Sequence record: NC_049815.1
Length of the DNA: 51,012 bases
Direction: 5' to 3' (one strand)
Source of the DNA: Escherichia phage tonn
Below, in pieces: positions 12,448-50,580 of the stretch (position 1 is the first letter of the stretch; every line of letters starts with the position of its first letter). The translations under genes and the position numbers were made by a program. A model generated the notes under the pieces. That model was given only the letters and a program-made list of their open reading frames with translations, did no database searches and was not told the origin of the DNA.

Positions 12448-12504
12448 TTTTGTTTCCTCAATCTCGTTTCGATGAGGCTATTATGCCAGGCTTTGCGCCT
12501 GGCG

Positions 12505-12526
12505 TTTTAACAAAAAGTGCTATTTT
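12505..12526 (-). promoter_or_regulatory. 21-bp intergenic motif copy with hairpin CCAGGC-n5-GCCTGG and CATAAT
   Basis: motif match; leader contains CATCGAAACGA. Confidence 0.5.
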
Positions 12527-12792
12527 GTCTCTACGGTCATATGTTCTGTCTTCGTGCCTTTGCCATTGCTTTTCGACACTTCCCAGCTAGTCGTGCCCTT
12601 ACAGTTGGTGAAGTAAACAGTGCGATCGTCATAGAATCGGTAAACGGTGCAACCGTCAGCGGTGAATAGCTCCCTTACGCTGTAGTCATCGCCAGGGTTA
12701 GCCATCTGCACATTGCCAACATGCGCGCCATCTTCTTTGCATCCGGTCAGGAATGCCATTGCCGCCAAAACGCTGATTAATGCCTTTTTCAT
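12520..12792 (-). CDS. lipoprotein (signal peptide with lipobox LTGC)
   Basis: MKKALISVLAAMAFLTGC N-terminus; ATGA overlap with upstream gene; second gene of the consensus-promoter operon. Confidence 0.55.
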   Translation of the reverse strand: MKKALISVLAAMAFLTGCKEDGAHVGNVQMANPGDDYSVRELFTADGCTVYRFYDDRTVYFTNCKGTTSWEVSKSNGKGTKTEHMTVETK

Positions 12793-13250
12793 TGCTCTTC
12801 CTCTTTGATGATTTCGCGGATCATATCCTGGTAGCGGCTTACGCCCTCGCAAGCCCCAGCCAGTTTATCCCCTTCCAGGTCAACGATATTCGGGATTGCT
12901 GCCAGTAAGCGATCGGCAAACTTTTTGATCGCCCTTGCCTTGATTGCTGGCAATTCTTCGGGTGTGATGATTTTCCTTTTCGATTCGCGCACCATGCGGA
13001 AAACGTAAAATTTATCATCTTCCGTTTCCTCTACCTTGATGCTTACCCGACCTGCGGCCCTTACTTCTGGAACGCGGTTGATAATGGTCCGGCTGTAGGA
13101 TGAACTGCGCGTGATCTTGTAGCAGTCGTCACCGCTTAACATTCCGGCCAGGTCAATTAGTGACATTTTATACTCTTCAATATCGCCACTAGCCAGGCGG
13201 CGACCAAGCTCGCGAAGCCAATCGCAATAGTCCTTAGTGGTCTTCTGTTC
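12789..13250 (-). CDS. hypothetical immediate-early protein
   Basis: ATG at 13250 with GGAGGAAAGGAA RBS, just downstream of consensus promoter. Confidence 0.5.
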   Translation of the reverse strand, partial: EQKTTKDYCDWLRELGRRLASGDIEEYKMSLIDLAGMLSGDDCYKITRSSSYSRTIINRVPEVRAAGRVSIKVEETEDDKFYVFRMVRESKRKIITPEELPAIKARAIKKFADRLLAAIPNIVDLEGDKLAGACEGVSRYQDMIREIIKEEEQ

Positions 13251-13284
13251 CATTTCCTTTCCTCCAGTTGTTGACTGTTGGCGC

Positions 13285-13312
13285 ATTATAAAAGCTATTT
13301 GGTGCGTGTCAA
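13285..13312 (-). promoter_or_regulatory. consensus sigma70 promoter TTGACA-16-TATAAT (leftward early promoter)
   Basis: perfect -35 (13312..13307) and -10 (13290..13285) hexamers on - strand with 16-bp spacer. Confidence 0.6.
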
Positions 13313-20231: not shown

Positions 20232-20265
20232 AAATAAAGGAGGCATTAAGCCTCCTTTTTCTTTT
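20231..20265. terminator. bidirectional rho-independent terminator between convergent genes
   Basis: stem GGAGGC/GCCTCC with A-run before and T-run after. Confidence 0.6.
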
Positions 20266-20641
20266 CTCTCCAGTAAAGACAAATCAGCACAAGAAACACA
20301 ACAACGCATATGATTACTGGATCGTACCATCTGCCGTTATTACCCTGCACGACCTGAATTTTGTCTGCCTTGATGGTATTGGCCTGAATGGTTGATGTTG
20401 TGAAATCCTTCTTGCTGGACGTGTCCACCTTGTCAACCGCAGATTCCTTTATTGTGGTTTCCTGTTTTGTGCTGGCGTCCTGCTTTGCTGTAATGCCAAC
20501 TGTCTGCTTCACGTTCTCCGCTCCAGCCTGTGCTGTGATTTCCGGCTTACTGCCGATTAATCCGGTCAGTGGCGTAACGCTTGAACATCCAGACAAGATC
20601 ACCGCCATTGCGATTGGTGTAAGTAAAAAATTCTTCATCAT
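20246..20641 (-). CDS. unimolecular spanin (T1 gp11-like)
   Basis: 131 aa; N-terminal lipoprotein signal (AVILSGC) plus C-terminal TM helix ([16 protein letters not shown]); ATGA overlap with endolysin gene. Confidence 0.7.
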
Positions 20642-21129
20642 TTCAGATCCATTGTGCAATATTTGTATTCGACCTTGCGCCTGTTAAGTAAGCCTTTAGA
20701 CTTCTCGCGCTTTCCTGTTTTTGGGTTATGGTAATAAGTCCAACGATAAAGCTGATCGCAAGCCTCGTTTAATTTCCCCTGGTTGATGAGTTTCAGCATT
20801 GTTGAATTTCTGAAAGCTCCCACACCTGCATTGTAAGTGAATGAGTACATTGCTGCACGCATACTATCAGGAATATCAACCTTAACTTGCTTGTCAACTT
20901 CCTTTTTAGCAACCTGGATATGCTTAGCCAACAAAGCATCACACTCTTTTTTAGTGTACGTTTTCCCCAGGATAACATCTGGTCCGGTGATTCCTGCGCA
21001 AACCGTCCATACTCCAGCAATATCTTTGTATGGCTTGTATCTTACCCCTTCGATCTCTTCAAGAAGTGGAGAAGTCAAGGCAACCGCAACGCCAAAGGCC
21101 GCCGCCGCTACCCTGTTCTTTATGCTCAT
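20638..21129 (-). CDS. SAR endolysin (T4-lysozyme-like muramidase)
   Basis: N-terminal weakly hydrophobic Gly/Ala-rich SAR segment followed by E-x8-D-x5-T catalytic triad. Confidence 0.75.
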
Positions 21130-21344
21130 TACTTGCCCCTGATTTCAATAGCTTTTTGAATATCACCTTTTTCGATCGCCTCGTGGAATTTTTTACTATC
21201 ACGCCAGCGAAGGTAAGCGCCCCATGCACCGAATGCAGCCATTAAAACAAAGCTGGCAATAGCAATGGTTAACTGCCCTGTAGCGGCGCTTGCGATAGAT
21301 GAACCGCCAGATCCAGCGGTAGCTGCGTTAATAAAATCTTTCAT
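21129..21344 (-). CDS. holin (pinholin-like)
   Basis: 71 aa, Gly/Ala/Ser-rich first segment and hydrophobic second helix, charged C-terminus; TAATG coupling to endolysin. Confidence 0.6.
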
Positions 21345-34286: not shown

Positions 34287-34306
34287 AAATAGCACTTTTT
34301 GCTAAA
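34287..34306 (+). promoter_or_regulatory. 21-bp intergenic motif copy (AAATAGCACTTTTTGCTAAA) with TATAGT 21 bp downstream
   Basis: motif match. Confidence 0.5.
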
Positions 34307-34362
34307 CGCGATGCCCAAGATCGTGTATAGTTGCATCCAACAACAACTAAGGAGTATTGAAG

Positions 34363-34632
34363 ATGAAAAAGTTAATCGCAGTTATCGCCACTGTAGCCGC
34401 TCTGACAGGATGCGCAGCGTCGCCTACTGGCAACTTCAAGGAGATCGATTGCACGGCAAAATTTAACGTTAAAACATTCCCTGTTAACGGATTCCATGAA
34501 GTCAAAATTAATGCAGTCCGCGAAAACAGATTCAGCCAAAAGCAATACAGGTTGAGCGTTGACAATAAAGAAGTTAAATTTATCAACCGTTGGCAAAATG
34601 AAAGTAAATTTATTGATTTGAGGTGTAATTAA
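34363..34632 (+). CDS. lipoprotein (possible Cor/Llp-like superinfection exclusion protein)
   Basis: MKKLIAVIATVAALTGC lipobox; AAGGAG RBS; next to tail tip gene. Function is inference. Confidence 0.5.
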   Translation: MKKLIAVIATVAALTGCAASPTGNFKEIDCTAKFNVKTFPVNGFHEVKINAVRENRFSQKQYRLSVDNKEVKFINRWQNESKFIDLRCN

Positions 34633-34910
34633 TGGCGCAATATGGTTATGCAATATATGACGATCGAGGAAGGGAAGTTACAGGACTTTTAACGCCTGTT
34701 TTCTTCCTTGATAAATTCACTCAGCCATCAGGTAGCAAGACTTACCAAAACAGGCCGCCAGGTAAATCATTGAAAGCAATATATGTTGGCATGAATTCCT
34801 GGCGTGGTGGCGACCCTGGCGCACCAAACTTAGGGGTAAGTGGCGACACCGTTACATGGAGTGGGCTTTCTGGATCTGATTCAAGATATATATATACTTT
34901 TTGGGGGTGA
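34632..34910 (+). CDS. hypothetical protein
   Basis: 92 aa. Confidence 0.45.
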   Translation: MAQYGYAIYDDRGREVTGLLTPVFFLDKFTQPSGSKTYQNRPPGKSLKAIYVGMNSWRGGDPGAPNLGVSGDTVTWSGLSGSDSRYIYTFWG

Positions 34911-35527
34911 TAATGTACGGGATGAGTATAAAAAAATCAGACGGATCGTTATGGTTAAGTCCAGATTTCACTCCAGTTAATCTAATTGATCGGGCCGTAA
35001 TATCTGCTAATACCGGAACCGTTTTTACTTCGTCAATTCCTGTTGATAGGGTATGTTTTTTCTTTGTTAGATTGACCGCTAAATCATACATATCATTCAC
35101 GCAATTTAACAATGGTGGAAGGCACGCAATAAGACTTGATAGATCTGATAATCAGGGTGAGGTTATTGTTTATGCTTTTAGTAATATGGTGACTCCCCCA
35201 GGTAGTCACGGCATAGCGTTTTATAATGCTCATGGTGAAATGGTTTATCATGGAAAAATGAGGCCGCTAGATGCAAAGCAAGTAGGCGTAAGCGGGATCG
35301 CATTTGATGTTAACATGGGCTATCCTTGCGCCATAATGCCATCACTGACAGCATTAAACTCTGTTCCTAATCCGGCTTTAGGTGGATTCATGATTTTTGA
35401 GTCTCAAGCTGCCGCGTATGGTAACGGGATCTACTCTTTTTCTAGGCAGGTTGCACAAACTCCTGGACCTGTTGGTATTTACACCGCTTCATCTGTTTTG
35501 GTTATAAATGCATCACACTATGATTAA
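34901..35527 (+). CDS. hypothetical protein
   Basis: 208 aa. Confidence 0.5.
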   Translation: MGVIMYGMSIKKSDGSLWLSPDFTPVNLIDRAVISANTGTVFTSSIPVDRVCFFFVRLTAKSYISFTQFNNGGRHAIRLDRSDNQGEVIVYAFSNMVTPPGSHGIAFYNAHGEMVYHGKMRPLDAKQVGVSGIAFDVNMGYPCAIMPSLTALNSVPNPALGGFMIFESQAAAYGNGIYSFSRQVAQTPGPVGIYTASSVLVINASHYD

Positions 35528-35555
35528 AATTAAAGGGGGCTATGCCCCCTTTTTT
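35527..35555. terminator. bidirectional rho-independent terminator
   Basis: GGGGGC-tat-GCCCCC flanked by A-rich and T6. Confidence 0.6.
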
Positions 35556-38500
35556 ACCAGCTTCCGGTAATCCTTCCGACTTCAACCCTCAATACTCCGT
35601 TTGCATCTTTTACCTTCAATCCCTCATTGGTGAATTTAGTAGCTCCTTCTCCTGGCGTTGATCCGTAATTCTCAAAGATTCCGTTTTTATCAAGCCTCCA
35701 TCCTTGCTGGTTTTGAACAAAGTTGTTTGACTGAATCACATTACCAATCATGGCATTAGTGATTGAACCGTTCTTCACCAAAAGACTATTAATGAAAACC
35801 TGATTATTCTCAACCACGAAAGGCAAAGTAAAAGTCCCTCCAGTAGAGCTAGTCATAATGGCGAACCTGTTAGCATCAAACAAAATTTGCGAGATAAGGC
35901 CGGATGAACCCTGCGAAAGCTGCATCACCATTCCTGCGCTGTATTGCTGGCCTTTGTAAGTAAGGCCAAGTTTCATAGCGTATTTAGCGCCAACTGAATC
36001 AACGCTCGCCCAAGAATCCAACTTTTCAACCAATGCAGATTCAACGTCGCCAAATCGTGCTGTTAATGCCTGGTCAGCCTGAACCCTTGCCTCTGTCTCA
36101 TTGGCGATCGCCTGTTTCACTTCTGAGATGTTAGCCTCGACTTCTGTTTTGATAACTCCGTCAAGGTCGTTTATCTCTTTCGTGAACTTAGCGTCAAGCT
36201 GCTGAACGGCCTGAGCGCGCGCTTCTGACTCGTTAGTGATTGTCTGCCTTACATCGCTAATGCTTGCAGAAGTATCCTTGCGCACGCCGTCGATTTCTTT
36301 TGTGAATTTAGAATCAAGCTGCTGAATTTGAGTCGCTCGCGTCTCTGATTCAGTGGCAATTGCCTCCTGCACTGTCTTGATGCTTGATGTTATCTCGCCA
36401 TCAATTGATGCCCTTAACTCTTCGATTTGAGTTACGCGCGCTTCTGTTTCATTGGCGATAAGCTCAAGAGCATGACCATATTCAGCCTTGCGCTTTCCGT
36501 TTTGCACTCGCGTCCACTTCACATCTGCATCATTTGCCAACGCGTTCTGTATGATTGATTGTGCCTGGTCTTTGATTTTATTGGCGCTGTCTATGGCGTT
36601 CTCTTTGATTTCTTGACCAGCTTCTGTATCAAAAATCTTGTCCAGAATGTCGCCCAAAACAGATTCAACATCATCTGACGCCATACCGCGAACAAAGTCA
36701 GTCCAACTGGAAACGTTGCCTATTCTGTCAACGCTGCGGATTCTATACCATACAACTTGCCCCGCTGGTAACGTGCTATGCCAATACTCATATTGAGGAT
36801 ATGGAATCAGCGTAAGCAGACTTGAGTTTTCAACCGTTCCGTCTGGCGATTGGTGAAGCTCAATGTAAGCCGTATCGCCTGATCCTTCCGGCATACCCCA
36901 TTTGACACGAATGCCAAAAACTTCATTATCAGAAGCCGTAAGATTAATCGGCGCTCCTGGCTCGCCAACTTTACCTGTCAGAGTGGCGGTTGCAATCTTT
37001 GACCACGGGGAAGCGTTACCGCTTGCAGAAACGGATCTCACCCTTACTTGGTAGTTGCCAGAGTAAATCCCTTCTACCTCTATCTCTTTGTTAGCGGTCT
37101 GCGGCGTATTCAGCCAGTTACCATCACCTTTTCGCCACTGCATTTCATAAAGCGATGCGTAAGGAACCTTATCCCATGAAACAACCATAGTCTCAACGCT
37201 AACACCCTGCACGACGCGAGAATAAGATGAGATCTTAACGTTCTCAGGCGCTGCCATCACGTCAGGCTGAACAATTGAAATCGGTCTGTCATCAATGTTT
37301 ACTCCATAATCAATCTCGTCGTATTTGTTCGGATCGTACTCTACAGCCGTGATTGAATAGGTAAACTCGTTTTCGTCATCACCCTTGCTGATGGTTGTCA
37401 CAACGTATTGCTGCAACGCAAGATCAGTACGGTCAATCGCAAAAACAGTATCAGGCTTAACATCAAAACCAAATCCAATATTTAACTCAATGGTTTTTCC
37501 GTCTGCGCTAACCTTTGAGATCGTGCGCTTAACTGGCTTGCCGTCCGGCTTGTTGATGATAATAAAATCACCAGGGCGAGCATCAACCTTAAACGGAACG
37601 AAAACCTGCAATCCTGAAACTTCCATCACTCGGCCCGATAGGTTTAACGTTAGGTTGCTGCTCTGAAAATTATCAGCGATAGCAATCACATCACCTATTG
37701 ATGGAATCATCCCCTCTAGTCCGGTAGCAAAGTTTACAGTAGTGCTTCTAAGGTTTGTTTTCAAAACCCACCGACCGCGACGATTCGCTTCGCTCCTGCG
37801 TGTACAACCGATCGCTGTAATGCTTGTTGGATTGTATCCAAATCGTAATGCAGCCTCAGTATCAAAAACCCCCTCTACGTCCTGCTGATACATGTTTTGT
37901 TCGTCGTCAAACGTCACGTTACACTGCGTGTACATGCTTTTTTCGCTTGCGTTTGTGTACTGAAAATCACCGTTGATGACGTTTTCATTAGTAAACACGT
38001 ATGATGGATCGCGCGGCTTATCAATCACGATTGATAAGCTCTCACCATTCCAAAAACTCATTCCGCGAAAGATTGAGCAAATGTCACGGATTAGCTGATA
38101 AGCCTCAACTTGATTCTGAATCACCACATCGCATAGGTAGCGAGGCTCTGTACCACCCTTGCCGTCTGGAACTTTCTGATCACAGTAAACGCCCGCCTCG
38201 TATAAGCTCCACTTGTCGATCTGTATTCCTAACTCTCGCTGATCAAGTCCGTAACGCTGATTTGTCACCAGATCATAAAGAACCCAAGCCGGATTATTTG
38301 ACCACGCTTTTTTAAAAGTCCCATCCCATGACCCGTGATATTCTCTTGATATTGGATCATAGTTGCTTGGCACATTAATAATCTTCCATTTCTTTTTTAT
38401 AGAAATGTTAGGGATTTGCGTAGGAAACAATTCGCTGTCAAATTCTACGAATACAAGGCCAGTCAGAGGATAACGGAATTTTGCATCAACAACCTCAGCG

Positions 38501-39132
38501 TAACTTTGCAGCTTGATTTTATCAGTCACCTTTGAAGATGTGCTGTCTGGAGTCAGTCGCTTTACTCGGATTAAAACGCGCTCATCAAACTTAGGAAGAT
38601 CAATCCTTCTGCTGCGGTCGTATCCTGATCTTGTCTTGCCGTCAATTACATCTCTCATAACCTCGCTATAAGAACCGCCATCAATAGCCATATCTACGGC
38701 ATACTCAACCCTTACGCCAACAAGATCGCCGTTATCCTCCTGTTTTATGCCAACTGGCATCAGAATCTTGATTCTTATTGCAGAAAGATTTTTGTTTGTC
38801 ACAGAGATAATATAGGGATTGTCTGTTGTAATGTCTCGCGAAACTGTCACCTCGCTTGATGTGTCAGTAAACCCCTGGATGTAATCTTGCGTCTGTGTGC
38901 CTGGTCTATATTCAGCCGTAACTCCCTCGTAGTTAACAGTGCCATCGCTGGCAATAACCGGAACATCATCAAGATAAAGATCGCGCAACGTGAAATCTGG
39001 ATCGCACTCGCCATCAGATACAGCCAGCAAAACTTTAATCTTGTTTATCGAGATCAGGTTATCTTCCATCTCTTTTGGCACGTATGGCTTTTTGCTTCCG
39101 CCCTTACTGCCGCTTATCATATATTTAGCCAT
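35554..39132 (-). CDS. tail tip / host specificity protein (lambda J-like)
   Basis: ~1192 aa from ATG 39132; last gene of M-L-K-I-J-type tail tip cluster. Confidence 0.85.
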   Translation of the reverse strand: MAKYMISGSKGGSKKPYVPKEMEDNLISINKIKVLLAVSDGECDPDFTLRDLYLDDVPVIASDGTVNYEGVTAEYRPGTQTQDYIQGFTDTSSEVTVSRDITTDNPYIISVTNKNLSAIRIKILMPVGIKQEDNGDLVGVRVEYAVDMAIDGGSYSEVMRDVIDGKTRSGYDRSRRIDLPKFDERVLIRVKRLTPDSTSSKVTDKIKLQSYAEVVDAKFRYPLTGLVFVEFDSELFPTQIPNISIKKKWKIINVPSNYDPISREYHGSWDGTFKKAWSNNPAWVLYDLVTNQRYGLDQRELGIQIDKWSLYEAGVYCDQKVPDGKGGTEPRYLCDVVIQNQVEAYQLIRDICSIFRGMSFWNGESLSIVIDKPRDPSYVFTNENVINGDFQYTNASEKSMYTQCNVTFDDEQNMYQQDVEGVFDTEAALRFGYNPTSITAIGCTRRSEANRRGRWVLKTNLRSTTVNFATGLEGMIPSIGDVIAIADNFQSSNLTLNLSGRVMEVSGLQVFVPFKVDARPGDFIIINKPDGKPVKRTISKVSADGKTIELNIGFGFDVKPDTVFAIDRTDLALQQYVVTTISKGDDENEFTYSITAVEYDPNKYDEIDYGVNIDDRPISIVQPDVMAAPENVKISSYSRVVQGVSVETMVVSWDKVPYASLYEMQWRKGDGNWLNTPQTANKEIEVEGIYSGNYQVRVRSVSASGNASPWSKIATATLTGKVGEPGAPINLTASDNEVFGIRVKWGMPEGSGDTAYIELHQSPDGTVENSSLLTLIPYPQYEYWHSTLPAGQVVWYRIRSVDRIGNVSSWTDFVRGMASDDVESVLGDILDKIFDTEAGQEIKENAIDSANKIKDQAQSIIQNALANDADVKWTRVQNGKRKAEYGHALELIANETEARVTQIEELRASIDGEITSSIKTVQEAIATESETRATQIQQLDSKFTKEIDGVRKDTSASISDVRQTITNESEARAQAVQQLDAKFTKEINDLDGVIKTEVEANISEVKQAIANETEARVQADQALTARFGDVESALVEKLDSWASVDSVGAKYAMKLGLTYKGQQYSAGMVMQLSQGSSGLISQILFDANRFAIMTSSTGGTFTLPFVVENNQVFINSLLVKNGSITNAMIGNVIQSNNFVQNQQGWRLDKNGIFENYGSTPGEGATKFTNEGLKVKDANGVLRVEVGRITGSW

Positions 39133-39424
39133 GACTTTTAACCTTTTGTGCTGTTTCTTGGTTTGCACATTATAAATGCACAAAAAAACCAGCGCAATGC
39201 TGGTTAAATCTACTTTCCGTGGTTTATGTGGAATTTGTTTAAAACTTCAATCTCTATCATCTTTTCTGCCGCTTCCTGCCTCACTTCCTTTCTTTATCCT
39301 TCTTCCTACGTCTACAGCCCAAAATAACTTACCGTCATTATAATAAAAAATATCACGCCACATGATCACATCCTTAATTAATTGTAAAGCGAAAATCCGT
39401 TTTCGCTTTAACATATTGTGCTAT

Positions 39425-48187: not shown

Positions 48188-48460
48188 TTAATAGATGCCG
48201 CCGTCTTCAAGTTCGGCTTTGCTCTTGCCCTCTCGCGGGTCTTTTTTACGTTTGCTTGCTGCGCTCTGTTTGATTTCTTCGTTCAATGCGGAGTTATCTT
48301 TAACCTCCAGATCGCCTTTTGCAATTAGATATTCAAACGCGCTTGTTTTCAATTTTGATTCTTCTACGTCAAACTCTTTGCCTGGATGATAATGCTCACC
48401 ATCAACAATAATAAGGCATACGCCGGAAACCTTTAGCGTTACAGTTTTTTCTTTAGCCAT
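48188..48460 (-). CDS. hypothetical structural protein
   Basis: 90 aa; between major capsid terminator and connector genes. Confidence 0.45.
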   Translation of the reverse strand: MAKEKTVTLKVSGVCLIIVDGEHYHPGKEFDVEESKLKTSAFEYLIAKGDLEVKDNSALNEEIKQSAASKRKKDPREGKSKAELEDGGIY

Positions 48461-48474
48461 TTTATAACCTCCAA

Positions 48475-48503
48475 TAAAAAAGGGAATCCAGTTAAGGATT
48501 CCC
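48475..48503 (-). terminator. rho-independent terminator after major capsid gene
   Basis: GGGAATCC-agttaa-GGATTCCC followed by T6 on the - strand. Confidence 0.55.
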
Positions 48504-48516
48504 CAATGTTATACGA

Positions 48517-49491
48517 TTAACTTGATTTTTTCAAGCCAGTAATAAGCACTAGCGTAAACGGACGGTAAATCGTCAGGCCAGTACATTTTGAAGTGCAGGG
48601 AACTTTGAAATGCAGATCTTTTGGTTGCGCCGGAAGCATGTTAAATGCTTCTGGAATTTCGATCGACATGTTCATCGGGTCTTTCTCATATACCAGACAG
48701 CCTTTCGTTCCTGTGCCGTCAATATCCTCAAGCTCTGCGATCGAGTCAATGGCGATTCCGCTGTTTTGTTTCTGGAAGTATTCCAGATAACTTTCAGTGG
48801 TGTTTTCCATTCGAACGGAAAGAACCTTGCGCATAGACGGCGGAATCAGGATATTGGTTGCGCGGTGCTGACCATTGGTAATGGTCTGAATGGTTTCAAT
48901 AGCCTTTTCCAGTTCATCAGATGCCGCCTGTGGGAACTTGGTGTTTTCATCAGCGCTTAACCAGCCAGCTGACGTAATTTTTGTCAGGTTAGGATGTTCA
49001 AACACCGAAAGAATCTTATGCGGCTTTGAACCCTTAAACACCAGGCGGTTAACTTCCTGATCATGAGCGTTTTGCGCTGCGTTTGCCTTGCGAGTGGAAA
49101 GGCTCTTACCAGTACGCTGACCAGACTTGATTTCGTCAATTGAGATCAAGAACGCGTTACCCAAGCGGAAAACTTTACCGAATTCGCTAGACATCAGCGC
49201 GTCAACGGTCGGCAGGTCGTCGGTGTAATCAGCGATAATTTTTGCGTAACCAACTTTGTCAAACATCTGATATTCAAAAGTCTTATCAGTATCAGAAAGC
49301 TCATTAGTTACAGGGAATACACGAAGCGCAGAACCTGCCGGATATTCTTTCTCGTAAGCATCAGAGCGAATCTTATGCAGTTCTTTAGCGGCCCAAATAC
49401 CCATGTCGTACGCATCACCTTTAACGCCGCGAGTAGCCAGATAGCTAGAAACAATATCCGCATCTAGCTGATCAAATTTTTCTTTTTCCAT
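48517..49491 (-). CDS. major capsid protein
   Basis: 325 aa from ATG 49491 (GGAGGAAGAAA RBS); position after two small head genes; followed by terminator. Confidence 0.65.
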   Translation of the reverse strand: MEKEKFDQLDADIVSSYLATRGVKGDAYDMGIWAAKELHKIRSDAYEKEYPAGSALRVFPVTNELSDTDKTFEYQMFDKVGYAKIIADYTDDLPTVDALMSSEFGKVFRLGNAFLISIDEIKSGQRTGKSLSTRKANAAQNAHDQEVNRLVFKGSKPHKILSVFEHPNLTKITSAGWLSADENTKFPQAASDELEKAIETIQTITNGQHRATNILIPPSMRKVLSVRMENTTESYLEYFQKQNSGIAIDSIAELEDIDGTGTKGCLVYEKDPMNMSIEIPEAFNMLPAQPKDLHFKVPCTSKCTGLTIYRPFTLVLITGLKKSS

Positions 49492-49536
49492 TTTCTTCCT
49501 CCATATATAAAGGCTGTTAGTATGTAACGCCACAAT

Positions 49537-49555
49537 GATAGCATTTTTTGTTAAA
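49537..49555 (+). promoter_or_regulatory. degenerate 21-bp motif copy in antisense orientation upstream of major capsid gene
   Basis: GATAGCATTTTTTGTTAAA on + strand. Confidence 0.3.
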
Positions 49556-49574
49556 CGTGCAACATAATTTTGTG

Positions 49575-50021
49575 TTATGCGTTAATGCTTACCCCGACAA
49601 TATATGAATCATGATCAACCTTTACATGTTCGCCAGTAAAGATCCAACCAATCAGCAAGTCGCCTTCACTGTATGCTGCATCTCCATCTTGCGTTACAAA
49701 TACTTTGTCTCCATATTCTGGCGCTTCGCTCTCAGAAGTTAAGCACCACACAATACCTCGACTAACAACACTAACTGGATCGCCATCCTCATATATGCAC
49801 GAGCCCAGCGGCCTTACTGCCACGCCAATAACAAGATCCCCATTAATACTGGCTATTTTGTATCCATTTGTTATATGTGATAGTCGAACAATCTTACCTG
49901 GCGCAATAAATTCATCTCCGCACACGAAAGAACCGTTAATCACCATTATTGAAGAATCGACCATGCACCCTGGCGACTCAGCGCCAACAATGACTGAATA
50001 ATCACTCATAAGAAACTCCAA
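49575..50021 (-). CDS. head structural protein (paralog of 50056..50568; decoration-like?)
   Basis: shares GVAV, G.VW.L..E..AP.(F/Y)G.K and W(I)(A/F)TG blocks with upstream gene. Confidence 0.5.
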   Translation of the reverse strand: MEFLMSDYSVIVGAESPGCMVDSSIMVINGSFVCGDEFIAPGKIVRLSHITNGYKIASINGDLVIGVAVRPLGSCIYEDGDPVSVVSRGIVWCLTSESEAPEYGDKVFVTQDGDAAYSEGDLLIGWIFTGEHVKVDHDSYIVGVSINA

Positions 50022-50025
50022 ATAT

Positions 50026-50048
50026 AAAAAAGGCGCTCAGTGAGCGCC
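50026..50048 (-). terminator. terminator-like hairpin GGCGCTC-agt-GAGCGCC followed by T-run on - strand
   Basis: between the two paralogous head genes. Confidence 0.45.
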
Positions 50049-50055
50049 ATATTTA

Positions 50056-50568
50056 TTAACCTGCTGAAGATGCAGGAACTTTTTGCACCTGAACCTCTAC
50101 CAGCTTCAAGTCTTGAAACTTGGTAAAGTCACCAGTTGCGATCCAGTTTGTTTCGATAGTGCCAGACCCGGTATCAACCTGACCATCATCAGACAGTTTG
50201 ATTTTAGTGCCGAACGCTGGCGCGGTGGCGTCTTCAGCCAACATCCAAACACGCCCTTCAGTCATTACGTTGATTCCGCCGCCAGATTCATAAATCATTC
50301 GGCCGTCAGACGAAGTTGTCTGAAAGTGAGATCGAATTGCAACGCCGTAAGCCTTGCCGCTTGCCGCCATCGGCTTAATTAGCTTATTGCCCATAGCATC
50401 AACGCCGCCATGCTGGACTGCAACACCAACAAAAATGTTTTTGTTCTGGTTGCCTTGCGCATTCTCAAGAACACAAGCGCCATCAATATTATAAGCTGAA
50501 GTGTCAGAAACCTGACCAGGTAACGCACGAGACATTACAGCAAAATAACTTGCTCCAATTGTAGCCAT
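50056..50568 (-). CDS. head structural protein (paralog of 49575..50021)
   Basis: 170 aa; see paralog blocks above. Confidence 0.55.
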   Translation of the reverse strand: MATIGASYFAVMSRALPGQVSDTSAYNIDGACVLENAQGNQNKNIFVGVAVQHGGVDAMGNKLIKPMAASGKAYGVAIRSHFQTTSSDGRMIYESGGGINVMTEGRVWMLAEDATAPAFGTKIKLSDDGQVDTGSGTIETNWIATGDFTKFQDLKLVEVQVQKVPASSAG

Positions 50569-50580
50569 GTTTATTTCTCC

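What the first reader, a model, noticed from the sequence alone, without database searches (positions are those of the whole stretch)
12520..12792. Two phage-encoded lipoproteins, one in the immediate-early operon: candidate superinfection exclusion factors
Both 12520..12792 (MKKALISVLAAMAFLTGC, second gene behind the consensus sigma70 promoter) and 34363..34632 (MKKLIAVIATVAALTGC, next to the tail tip gene) have textbook lipoprotein signal peptides. In T1, phi80, N15 (Cor) and T5 (Llp), small lipoproteins block the outer-membrane receptor against superinfection; the same may apply here, possibly to two different receptors.
Basis: partly seen in the sequence, partly recalled or inferred. Interest (0 to 1): 0.5.

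Follow-up and report, generated by a model that had tools for sequence, protein, structure and literature searches.

The report
Two phage lipoproteins: one Cor-like, one unknown
This T1-like E. coli phage encodes two small exported lipoproteins: one is the expected receptor-blocking "Cor-like" protein beside its BtuB-recognition genes, and the other belongs to a widespread phage lipoprotein family of unknown function (DUF4884) that does not behave like a blocker of the phage's own receptor.

Summary
Both ORFs are real, at the stated coordinates, and have textbook lipoprotein signal peptides. The window is a Warwickvirus (Drexlerviridae), 99% identical to phage tinuso.

**Lpp2 (34363..34632, +)** is the first gene of a three-gene cassette between the J-like tail tip and exonuclease VIII. 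The cassette is 99% identical to that of phage FritzSarasin, whose receptor is BtuB. This is the known "RBP plus superinfection-exclusion" locus. Lpp2 shares the position, size and terminal cysteine pair of Cor and Llp. Its mature domain has no detectable sequence similarity to T1-type Cor, and its "Cor" HMM hit comes from the signal peptide.

**Lpp1 (12520..12792, −)** is the second gene behind the only perfect sigma-70 promoter in the window.
- It belongs to Pfam DUF4884, with about 1,800 clusters, found in phages and prophages wherever context was checked.
- Its model is a five-stranded beta sheet with no structural neighbour, Llp included.
- Its mature domain is swapped as a cassette between near-identical phages.
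- Its alleles do not track the receptor (BtuB, FhuA or LptD).
- It never sits beside tail genes.

A Cor/Llp-type self-receptor block is therefore unlikely for Lpp1, and its function remains open.

The parts
13285..13312 (-). Perfect sigma-70 promoter (TTGACA-16-TATAAT) driving p154 and Lpp1
   Evidence: It is the only 12/12 match in the window. It is 100% conserved in FritzSarasin. An equivalent TTGACA-17-GATAAT lies upstream of the homologous pair in PeterMerian.
12789..13253 (-). First gene of the operon: a 154-aa protein of unknown function (DUF7174, phrog_4841)
   Evidence: The Rtp homologue is rtp1. The gene is itself allelic among Warwickviruses, at 100/63/34/28% identity.
12520..12792 (-). 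Lpp1: a 90-aa prolipoprotein of family DUF4884 (PF16225, phrog_6360). The signal peptide and lipobox are codons 1-18 (12739..12792). The mature protein has about 20 residues of linker followed by a 50-residue beta-sheet domain.
12525..12743 (-). Hypervariable cassette, the mature-domain codons of Lpp1
   Evidence: Against FritzSarasin, identity is 97-100% on both flanks and 23-77% per 30-nt bin (7/30 to 23/30) over 12743..12509, recovering to 100% from 12508. At least three alleles and one chimera exist.
12485..12524 (-). 21-nt motif AATAGCACTTTTTGTTAAAAC followed by a GC hairpin and CATAAT. This is a promoter-like element that begins the next transcription unit directly after the Lpp1 stop codon.
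34288..34331 (+). The same motif class (3 mismatches) followed by TATAGT. Candidate promoter of the Lpp2 cassette.
34363..34632 (+). Lpp2: an 89-aa prolipoprotein, the Cor-like candidate exclusion factor of the BtuB-type RBP cassette. Cysteines lie at mature positions 14 and 72 (precursor Cys30 and Cys88; lipidated Cys17 = mature 1).
34632..34910 (+). 92-aa cassette protein (phrog_557, 'outer membrane protein'), a putative RBP component
   Evidence: It is 99% identical to FritzSarasin bas04_0024. T1 ST32 is in the same PHROG.
34913..35527 (+). 204-aa cassette protein (phrog_425, 'membrane associated protein'), a putative RBP component
   Evidence: It is 99% identical to FritzSarasin bas04_0023. 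T1 ST31 is in the same PHROG.
35554..39183 (-). J-like tail tip protein, convergent with the cassette
20246..20638 (-). Third lipoprotein of the phage: the u-spanin of the lysis cassette. It is not part of the finding but serves as a control.
   Evidence: phrog_1804 at E 3e-47. It also hits the Cor PHROG at 7e-5 through its signal peptide.

Best explanation
The two genes are different things.

**Lpp2**
- It is the exclusion lipoprotein of a BtuB-specific host-recognition cassette (Lpp2, phrog_557, phrog_425).
- It is inferred to be exported by Sec, lipidated at Cys17 and sorted to the inner leaflet of the outer membrane (Ala at +2).
- There, like Llp on FhuA, it is inferred to bind the periplasmic face or plug of the TonB-dependent transporter BtuB. 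This would keep related phages and the phage's own progeny from adsorbing to infected cells and debris.

**Lpp1**
- It is a member of DUF4884, a large family of small lipoproteins found in phages and prophages wherever context was examined.
- It is transcribed from the strongest host-type promoter at the genome end, so it is probably made first.
- It is inferred to be lipidated at Cys18 and sent to the outer membrane (Lys at +2).
- It presents a roughly 50-residue five-stranded beta sheet on a roughly 20-residue tether. A Cys48-Cys64 disulfide probably staples the sheet.
- Its core motif (LFxxDGCTVYRFxD...YFTNC) is nearly invariant across phages of many Gram-negative hosts, and its alleles ignore the phage's own receptor. 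It therefore most likely binds a conserved envelope component rather than the terminal receptor.
- The physiological outcome is not established. My best guess is exclusion of, or competition with, other phages, or some other envelope conditioning.

**Shown:** the genes, the signals, family membership, context, allele behaviour and the predicted fold.
**Inferred:** lipidation, localisation, expression timing, binding targets and the exclusion phenotype.
For: **Lpp2**
- The cassette proteins are 99% identical to those of FritzSarasin.
- FritzSarasin and KarlJaspers (Lpp2 56% identical) both use BtuB (S5 Table of PMC8594841).
- The FhuA phage PeterMerian carries a T1-type Cor at the same locus.
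- The partner genes are the same PHROGs as T1 ST32 and ST31.
- The cysteine pair near the two ends matches T1 Cor and the Llp Cys11-Cys58 clamp (PMC9586334).
- The literature treats this locus as RBPs plus exclusion factors.

**Lpp1**
- Pfam DUF4884 scores 31.8 bits against a cut-off of 30.
- The profile search finds 1,795 representative clusters at E<=1e-3.
- The lipobox is conserved, and F53 and D55 are invariant.
- The AF2 model has pLDDT 87.7.
- It lies behind the only perfect sigma-70 promoter.
- The pair rtp1/rtp3 sits at the extreme left end of Rtp.
- Every context examined is phage or prophage, among early, replication, methylase or integrase genes.
- Alleles are uncoupled from the receptor.
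- The swap is cassette-sized.
Against: - No experiment or expression data exist for either protein.
- The mature domain of Lpp2 has no significant similarity to Cor, so homology to a proven exclusion factor is not shown.
- For Lpp1 nothing identifies a target. The neighbourhood survey used a crude ORF caller and only the largest flanking ORFs.
- A chromosomal DUF4884 protein is expressed in Bacteroides thetaiotaomicron (BT_3183; PMC8931616), so the family may not be purely viral.
- T1 lacks Lpp1, and one natural variant is frameshifted (P0004). The gene is therefore dispensable.
- Allele swapping also affects about 10% of the other genes between these phages. It is not unique evidence of diversifying selection.
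Confidence: 0.6

Rival explanations
1. One reading: Lpp1 is also a Cor/Llp-type receptor blocker. It would act on the phage's own receptor BtuB, or on a second outer-membrane receptor used by competing phages.
For: - It is a small early outer-membrane lipoprotein with a disulfide, as Llp is.
- Its mature domain is exchanged between near-identical genomes. That fits a gene involved in phage-phage or phage-host conflict.
- In temperate relatives the gene often lies near integrases, in moron-like positions.
Against: - Alleles A, B and C all coexist with the same BtuB cassette, and allele B also occurs with FhuA.
- LptD phages carry the gene too.
- The core is nearly invariant across phages of Escherichia, Serratia, Pantoea, Pseudomonas and Xanthomonas. 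This is unlike receptor-matched blockers.
- No similarity to Cor or Llp was found.
- It is never adjacent to RBP genes.
Confidence: 0.15
2. Lpp1 is not an exclusion factor. It is an envelope-acting accessory protein with another role. Examples are counteracting an envelope-associated host defence or stress response, protecting the infected cell from premature lysis or lysis from without, or tuning lysis timing.
For: - It is promoter-proximal at the genome end, where anti-defence and host-takeover genes of lytic phages typically sit.
- It lies next to Lar-like and methyltransferase genes in other phages.
- It is dispensable and patchy in distribution.
Against: - No similarity was found to any known anti-defence, lysozyme-inhibitor or lysis-regulator family.
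- The phage already has a complete holin, endolysin and u-spanin cassette elsewhere.
Confidence: 0.2
3. Lpp2 is not an exclusion factor. It is a structural or assembly component of the receptor-binding module, for example a chaperone or a virion-associated lipoprotein.
For: - It is co-transcribed with the two putative RBP genes.
- Its mature domain is not demonstrably homologous to Cor.
Against: - A lipid-anchored periplasmic protein cannot reach cytoplasmic virion assembly.
- Position, size and cysteine topology parallel Cor and Llp.
- In T1 and PeterMerian the lipoprotein at this locus is transcribed separately, on the opposite strand from the RBP genes.
Confidence: 0.07

Closest known systems
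Cor of T1, phi80, N15 and HK022 (phrog_1119; NCBIfam NF047972 'phage exclusion lipoprotein Cor')
   Same: Lpp2 shares these features:
- It is a small outer-membrane-type lipoprotein (73-residue mature form against 59 in T1).
- It has one Cys close to the mature N-terminus in a D/T-C-T-A context and one Cys 2-3 residues from the C-terminus.
- It is encoded between the J-like tail tip gene and exonuclease VIII.
- It sits together with phrog_557 and phrog_425 genes.
   Different: - The mature domain gives no hit to phrog_1119 at E<=1, whereas true Cor mature domains score 3e-19.
- NF047972 scores 19 bits against a cut-off of 31.
- hhalign probability is 1%.
- The predicted target is BtuB, not FhuA.
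- The gene is co-oriented with, and upstream of, the two RBP genes instead of opposite to them.
- Lpp1 shares nothing with Cor beyond being a lipoprotein.
Llp of phage T5 (FhuA blocker; PDB 8A60)
   Same: - Llp is an early-expressed, lipidated, periplasm-facing small protein encoded next to the receptor-binding protein gene.
- A disulfide constrains its termini, and it jams a TonB-dependent transporter from the periplasmic side (PMC9586334).
- Lpp2 matches the genetic logic and the cysteine topology.
- BtuB is also a TonB-dependent transporter.
   Different: - No sequence similarity was found.
- The fold of Lpp2 was not tested.
- The two cysteines of Lpp1 are internal (48 and 64) and staple one hairpin rather than the termini.
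Pfam DUF4884 (PF16225), phrog_6360 and phrog_902
   Same: - Lpp1 passes the Pfam gathering threshold.
- It shares the family's length, lipobox and core motif.
   Different: - The Warwickvirus allele A has lost the family's second cysteine pair (CGKxC).
- No function is known for any member.

Membership tests
Bacterial lipoprotein precursors (signal peptidase II substrates) | Positively charged n-region, uncharged hydrophobic h-region, and a lipobox [LVI][ASTVI][GAS]C with Cys at residues 15-35 | tested here: met
   - Lpp1 reads MKK-ALISVLAAMAF-LTGC18.
- Lpp2 reads MKK-LIAVIATVAA-LTGC17.
- Only three such ORFs occur in six frames.
- The lipobox is conserved in relatives.
Bacterial lipoprotein precursors (signal peptidase II substrates) | Actual diacylglyceryl modification, globomycin-sensitive cleavage, and outer-membrane sorting (no Asp at +2) | not testable with these tools
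   The +2 residues are Lys (Lpp1) and Ala (Lpp2). By the E. coli +2 rule (established knowledge) these predict outer-membrane sorting. No SignalP or LipoP was available.
Cor exclusion lipoproteins (phrog_1119 / NF047972) | Sequence similarity of the mature domain to the family profile | tested here: not met
   - Lpp2 full length scores E 8e-8, but its mature part gives no hit at E<=1.
- NF047972 scores 19.2 bits against a cut-off of 31.
- hhalign probability is 1.2%.
- The spanin also hits phrog_1119 at 7e-5, which shows a signal-peptide artefact.
- Positive controls, the mature domains of T1 and PeterMerian Cor, score 3e-19.
- Lpp1 gives no hit.
Cor exclusion lipoproteins (phrog_1119 / NF047972) | Encoded in the cassette downstream of the J-like tail tip gene, with phrog_557 and phrog_425 genes | tested here: met
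   - Met for Lpp2.
- Not met for Lpp1, which lies 22 kb away in the early left-end operon.
Cor / Llp exclusion lipoproteins | Cysteine pair joining the N- and C-terminal ends of the mature protein | tested here: met
   - Lpp2 has mature Cys14 and Cys72 of 73 (precursor Cys30 and Cys88; lipidated Cys17 = mature 1).
- T1 Cor has mature Cys9 and Cys57 of 59 (precursor Cys25 and Cys73).
- Llp has Cys11-Cys58.
- This rests on sequence only; the bond itself is not shown.
- In Lpp1 the cysteines are internal (48 and 64), so the feature is not met.
Cor / Llp exclusion lipoproteins | The lipoprotein type co-varies with the terminal receptor of the phage | tested here: met
   - For Lpp2, the Lpp2 type occurs in BtuB phages (FritzSarasin 99%, KarlJaspers 56%) and the T1-Cor type in the FhuA phage PeterMerian.
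- For Lpp1 the feature is not met. Alleles A, B and C all occur with the BtuB cassette, allele B also occurs with FhuA, and relatives occur in LptD phages.
Cor / Llp exclusion lipoproteins | Expression blocks adsorption through, and transport by, the cognate receptor | not testable with these tools
   This needs plating, adsorption and B12 or colicin assays.
Llp (T5) fold | Structural similarity to Llp (PDB 8A60) | tested here: not met
- BFVD returns only DUF4884 relatives.
Pfam DUF4884 (PF16225) | Score above the curated gathering threshold, with the shared core motif | tested here: met
   - Lpp1 scores 31.8 bits against GA 30.
- 22 of 23 first hits carry PF16225.
- The profile finds 1,795 clusters.
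- F53 and D55 are invariant.
Spanins (o-spanin / u-spanin) | Lipoprotein encoded in the lysis cassette. A u-spanin has a C-terminal transmembrane segment; an o-spanin has a partner i-spanin. | tested here: not met
   - The u-spanin is a different gene, 20246..20638, next to the endolysin and holin.
- Lpp1 and Lpp2 have hydrophilic C-termini and lie elsewhere.

The most novel reading that the evidence does not exclude
Lpp1 would represent a new, structurally unrelated class of phage envelope-acting lipoprotein (DUF4884).
- It would be made first after infection, or from prophages.
- It would bind a conserved periplasmic or outer-membrane component common to Gram-negative hosts. Through that target it would exclude heterologous phages or disarm an envelope-linked defence.
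- Its surface would be diversified by cassette exchange of the mature domain, while the signal peptide and the downstream promoter element serve as recombination arms.
Probability: 0.25. Interest if true: 0.65.

Novelty: new member of a known kind. Interest (0 to 1): 0.4.

Why it matters
**Lpp2**
- It is a ready test case for whether the Llp "plug-jamming" mechanism extends from FhuA to BtuB with an unrelated sequence. This matters for predicting cross-resistance among therapeutic coliphages.
- It also shows that database "Cor" annotations of such proteins can rest on the signal peptide alone.

**Lpp1**
- It is the more open question. The family has about 1,800 sequence clusters, occurs in phages of many Gram-negative genera, and sits behind the strongest early promoter of this phage, yet no function is known for any member.
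- If it proves to be an exclusion or anti-defence factor with a conserved target, it would add a widespread mechanism.
- If it does nothing detectable, it is one more accessory moron.

Tried and rejected
1. **Homology of Lpp1 to solved structures.** The profile search against PDB sequences hit only designed "Cake" propeller repeats, with no single stretch significant. This is a blade-like beta-meander resemblance amplified by repeats. It was rejected as uninformative. BamB and other PQQ-like lipoproteins were not among the hits.
2. **First AF2 model from 24 sequences.** It had pLDDT 65 and its Foldseek hits were meaningless. It was replaced by a model from 141 sequences.
4. **Cor membership of Lpp2 by HMM.** The apparent hit vanished once the signal peptide was removed.
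5. **A conserved partner gene for Lpp1.**
   - The upstream DUF7174 gene is conserved in Rtp but not in Serratia phage MTx.
   - Its alleles assort independently of Lpp1.
   - In the three-genome comparison, the only other genes with the same allele pattern are cytoplasmic-looking proteins and a head-gene block. No partner was identified.
6. **Spanin hypothesis.** Rejected.
7. **Literature.** No paper links DUF4884 or SECphi27 to a lipoprotein function. The Rtp genome paper (PMC1367250) is not held.
8. **Genome-collection scan.** It used a single exact peptide pattern and returned nine Pseudomonas loci and one Deltaproteobacteria MAG. It says little about the true taxonomic range.

Full report
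**What the window is.** The region around the finding is 99% identical to Escherichia phage tinuso and 97% identical to SECphi27 (Drexlerviridae, Tempevirinae, Warwickvirus). The window is a whole, circularly permuted T1-like genome.

- Lpp1 (12520..12792, minus strand, 90 aa) and Lpp2 (34363..34632, plus strand, 89 aa) are ATG ORFs with good Shine-Dalgarno sequences.
- Both have MKK n-regions, uncharged hydrophobic h-regions and the lipobox L-T-G-C.
- A strict six-frame scan finds only three such ORFs in the 51 kb. The third (20246..20638, −) is the u-spanin of the lysis cassette (phrog_1804, E 3e-47). A looser PROSITE-like rule gives a few false positives in non-coding frames.
- The promoter claim is correct. 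TTGACA-16-TATAAT at 13312..13285 (−) is the only 12/12 sigma-70 match in the window.
- That promoter is followed by a 154-aa gene (DUF7174) whose stop overlaps the Lpp1 start (ATGA).

**Lpp2: context.**
- Lpp2 is the first of three co-oriented genes, followed by a 92-aa and a 204-aa protein. The three converge on the J-like tail tip gene and lie between it and exonuclease VIII.
- The 92-aa and 204-aa proteins belong to phrog_557 and phrog_425. T1 ST32 and ST31, which accompany cor at the syntenic position in T1, belong to the same families.
- Maffei et al. 2021 and Humolli et al. 2025 describe this locus in small siphoviruses as encoding the receptor-binding proteins together with cognate exclusion factors, with alleles that predict the receptor (PMC8594841, PMC11990801).

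**Lpp2: receptor assignment.**
- All three cassette proteins are 99% identical to those of FritzSarasin (Bas04). Its experimentally determined terminal receptor is BtuB (S5 Table).
- KarlJaspers (Lpp2 56% identical) also uses BtuB.
- The FhuA-dependent Warwickvirus PeterMerian carries a T1-type Cor at the same place.
- The lipoprotein type therefore tracks the receptor, as expected of a cognate blocker.

**Lpp2: is it a Cor?**
- The full-length protein hits the Cor PHROG at E 8e-8. After removing the signal peptide there is no hit at E<=1.
- The mature domains of T1 and PeterMerian Cor score 3e-19.
- The unrelated spanin also hits the Cor PHROG at 7e-5 through its signal peptide.
- NCBIfam's Cor model gives 19 bits against a cut-off of 31.
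- Mature-only profile-profile comparison gives 1% probability.
- What Lpp2 does share is size and cysteine topology: one Cys near the mature N-terminus in a D/T-C-T-A context, and one Cys 2-3 residues from the C-terminus. Llp has the same termini-clamping arrangement, Cys11-Cys58 (PMC9586334).
- I therefore file Lpp2 as a positional and architectural analogue of Cor and Llp, specific to the BtuB cassette, and not as a demonstrated homologue.
- By analogy with Llp on FhuA, it would bind the periplasmic face of BtuB, another TonB-dependent transporter. This step is inferred.

**Lpp1: family and fold.**
- Lpp1 passes the Pfam threshold for DUF4884 (31.8 against 30 bits) and matches phrog_6360, a family of unknown function.
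- A word-indexed search found 23 relatives. An exhaustive profile search found 1,795 representative clusters at E<=1e-3 and 752 at E<=1e-10.
- Members are about 80-95 aa, nearly all have a lipobox, and share the core LFxxDGCTVYRFxD...YFTNCxG. F53 and D55 are invariant. C18, C48, C64, Y51, R52, Y60, G77 and K78 are at least 90% conserved.
- With 141 sequences AlphaFold gives pLDDT 87.7: signal helix, unstructured linker (residues 15-39), and five antiparallel strands (40-89).
- In the register implied by strands 48-54 and 58-62, Cys48 and Cys64 face each other, so a hairpin-stapling disulfide is plausible (inference).

**Lpp1: where the family lives.**
- Named phage hits are Tempevirinae, Rtp, Serratia myoviruses, a Pantoea phage and a Xanthomonas jumbo phage. 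Several records labelled Campylobacter phage (about 50 kb) also match. They look like coliphages; I did not check the labelling.
- Metagenomic members sit in a phage contig of about 124 kb, next to a Lar-like gene among small early genes, and in a 71-kb deazaguanine phage.
- The Pseudomonas chromosomal copy examined (L008) lies in a prophage-like region.
- In 80 IMG/VR loci, the most frequent large neighbours are integrases, DNA methyltransferases, primase/helicases and exonucleases, with some terminases. No tail-fibre or lysis family is among the top 25 (crude gene calling).
- In Rtp the pair rtp1 (DUF7174 homologue) and rtp3 (Lpp1 homologue) is the first operon at the left genome end.
- T1 lacks both genes.

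**Lpp1: allele behaviour.**

| Phage | Receptor or cassette | DUF7174 identity to window | Lpp1 allele |
|---|---|---|---|
| Window | BtuB cassette | – | A |
| FritzSarasin | BtuB | 100% | B (46% to A) |
| PeterMerian | FhuA | 28% | B (98% to FritzSarasin) |
| tiwna, atuna | BtuB cassette | 28% | B |
| Jahat | BtuB cassette | 63% | C |
| Fulano1 | not determined | 34% | B/A chimera |
| JeanPiccard | LptD (experimental) | not determined | 41% to window |
| Rtp | LptD (predicted) | 27% | 44-45% to window |

- Against FritzSarasin, DNA identity is 97-100% on both sides. It falls to 23-77% per 30-nt bin over 12743..12509 and returns to 100% from 12508, so the drop covers the mature-domain codons. 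The signal-peptide codons and the downstream 21-nt motif stay conserved.
- A receptor-matched blocker of the Cor/Llp kind should not behave like this. A near-invariant core across phages of different genera also points to a conserved target.
- Mosaicism is not unique to Lpp1. About 10% of genes differ between FritzSarasin and the window.

**Verdict.**
It is already the standard reading of this locus, though it is untested for the BtuB type and the sequence is not that of a Cor.
- My best mechanistic guess for Lpp1 is an early, outer-membrane-tethered binder of a conserved envelope component, with an exclusion or competition role. I give the exclusion role roughly 25-35%.

Noticed in passing
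window 6964, 9599, 11049, 12041, 12504, 23168, 24239, 26728 (-); 13867, 15172, 17089, 17763, 19925, 34288, 45279 (+): A 21-nt motif, AATAGCACTTTTTGTTAAAAC, occurs 15 times against 0 expected by chance. It is always oriented with local transcription. In 14 of the 15 copies (all but 45279) it is followed after 17-18 nt, usually a GC-rich inverted repeat, by a -10-like hexamer and then an RBS and start codon. The motif's TTGTTA lies 21-22 nt from the -10 hexamer, too far for an ordinary sigma-70 promoter. This looks like a phage-specific promoter or operator class. Read on the opposite strand, hairpin plus T-run, it would terminate antisense transcription. From memory, the Rtp paper's conserved repeats for regulator Rtp52 may be the same thing.
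   Followed up: partly
window 20246..20638 (-): The phage has a third lipoprotein, the u-spanin, next to the endolysin (20638..21129) and holin (21129..21344). It also matches the Cor PHROG at E 7e-5 purely through its signal peptide. This is a caution for automatic 'Cor' annotations.
   Followed up: yes
window 12789..13253 (-): The first gene of the early operon (DUF7174, 154 aa) is also strongly allelic among otherwise near-identical Warwickviruses, at 100/63/34/28% identity. It assorts independently of Lpp1.
   Followed up: partly
window 34632..34910 (+): The 92-aa cassette protein matches phrog_557 ('outer membrane protein') at E 4e-20. A 2026 survey (PMC13164509) reported that BtuB-targeting Tempevirinae lack this component of the cor cassette. 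Their HMM may have missed it.
   Followed up: no
public records matched (e.g. MG065636, MG065657): Several records named 'Campylobacter phage' (about 50 kb, host C. jejuni) match this coliphage's DNA and both of its lipoproteins (about 36-52% protein identity). They are probably mislabelled or contaminant Drexlerviridae.
   Followed up: no
protein P0004 (46-kb contig): This is a natural frameshift variant of Lpp1 allele A. Residues 1-38 are intact and unrelated sequence follows. It indicates that the gene can be lost without killing the phage.
   Followed up: no
window ~48190..50570 versus FritzSarasin/PeterMerian: A block of head genes (decoration protein and neighbours) is only 41-63% identical to FritzSarasin, while FritzSarasin and PeterMerian are 93-99% identical there. 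This is a separate mosaic replacement in the structural module.
   Followed up: no
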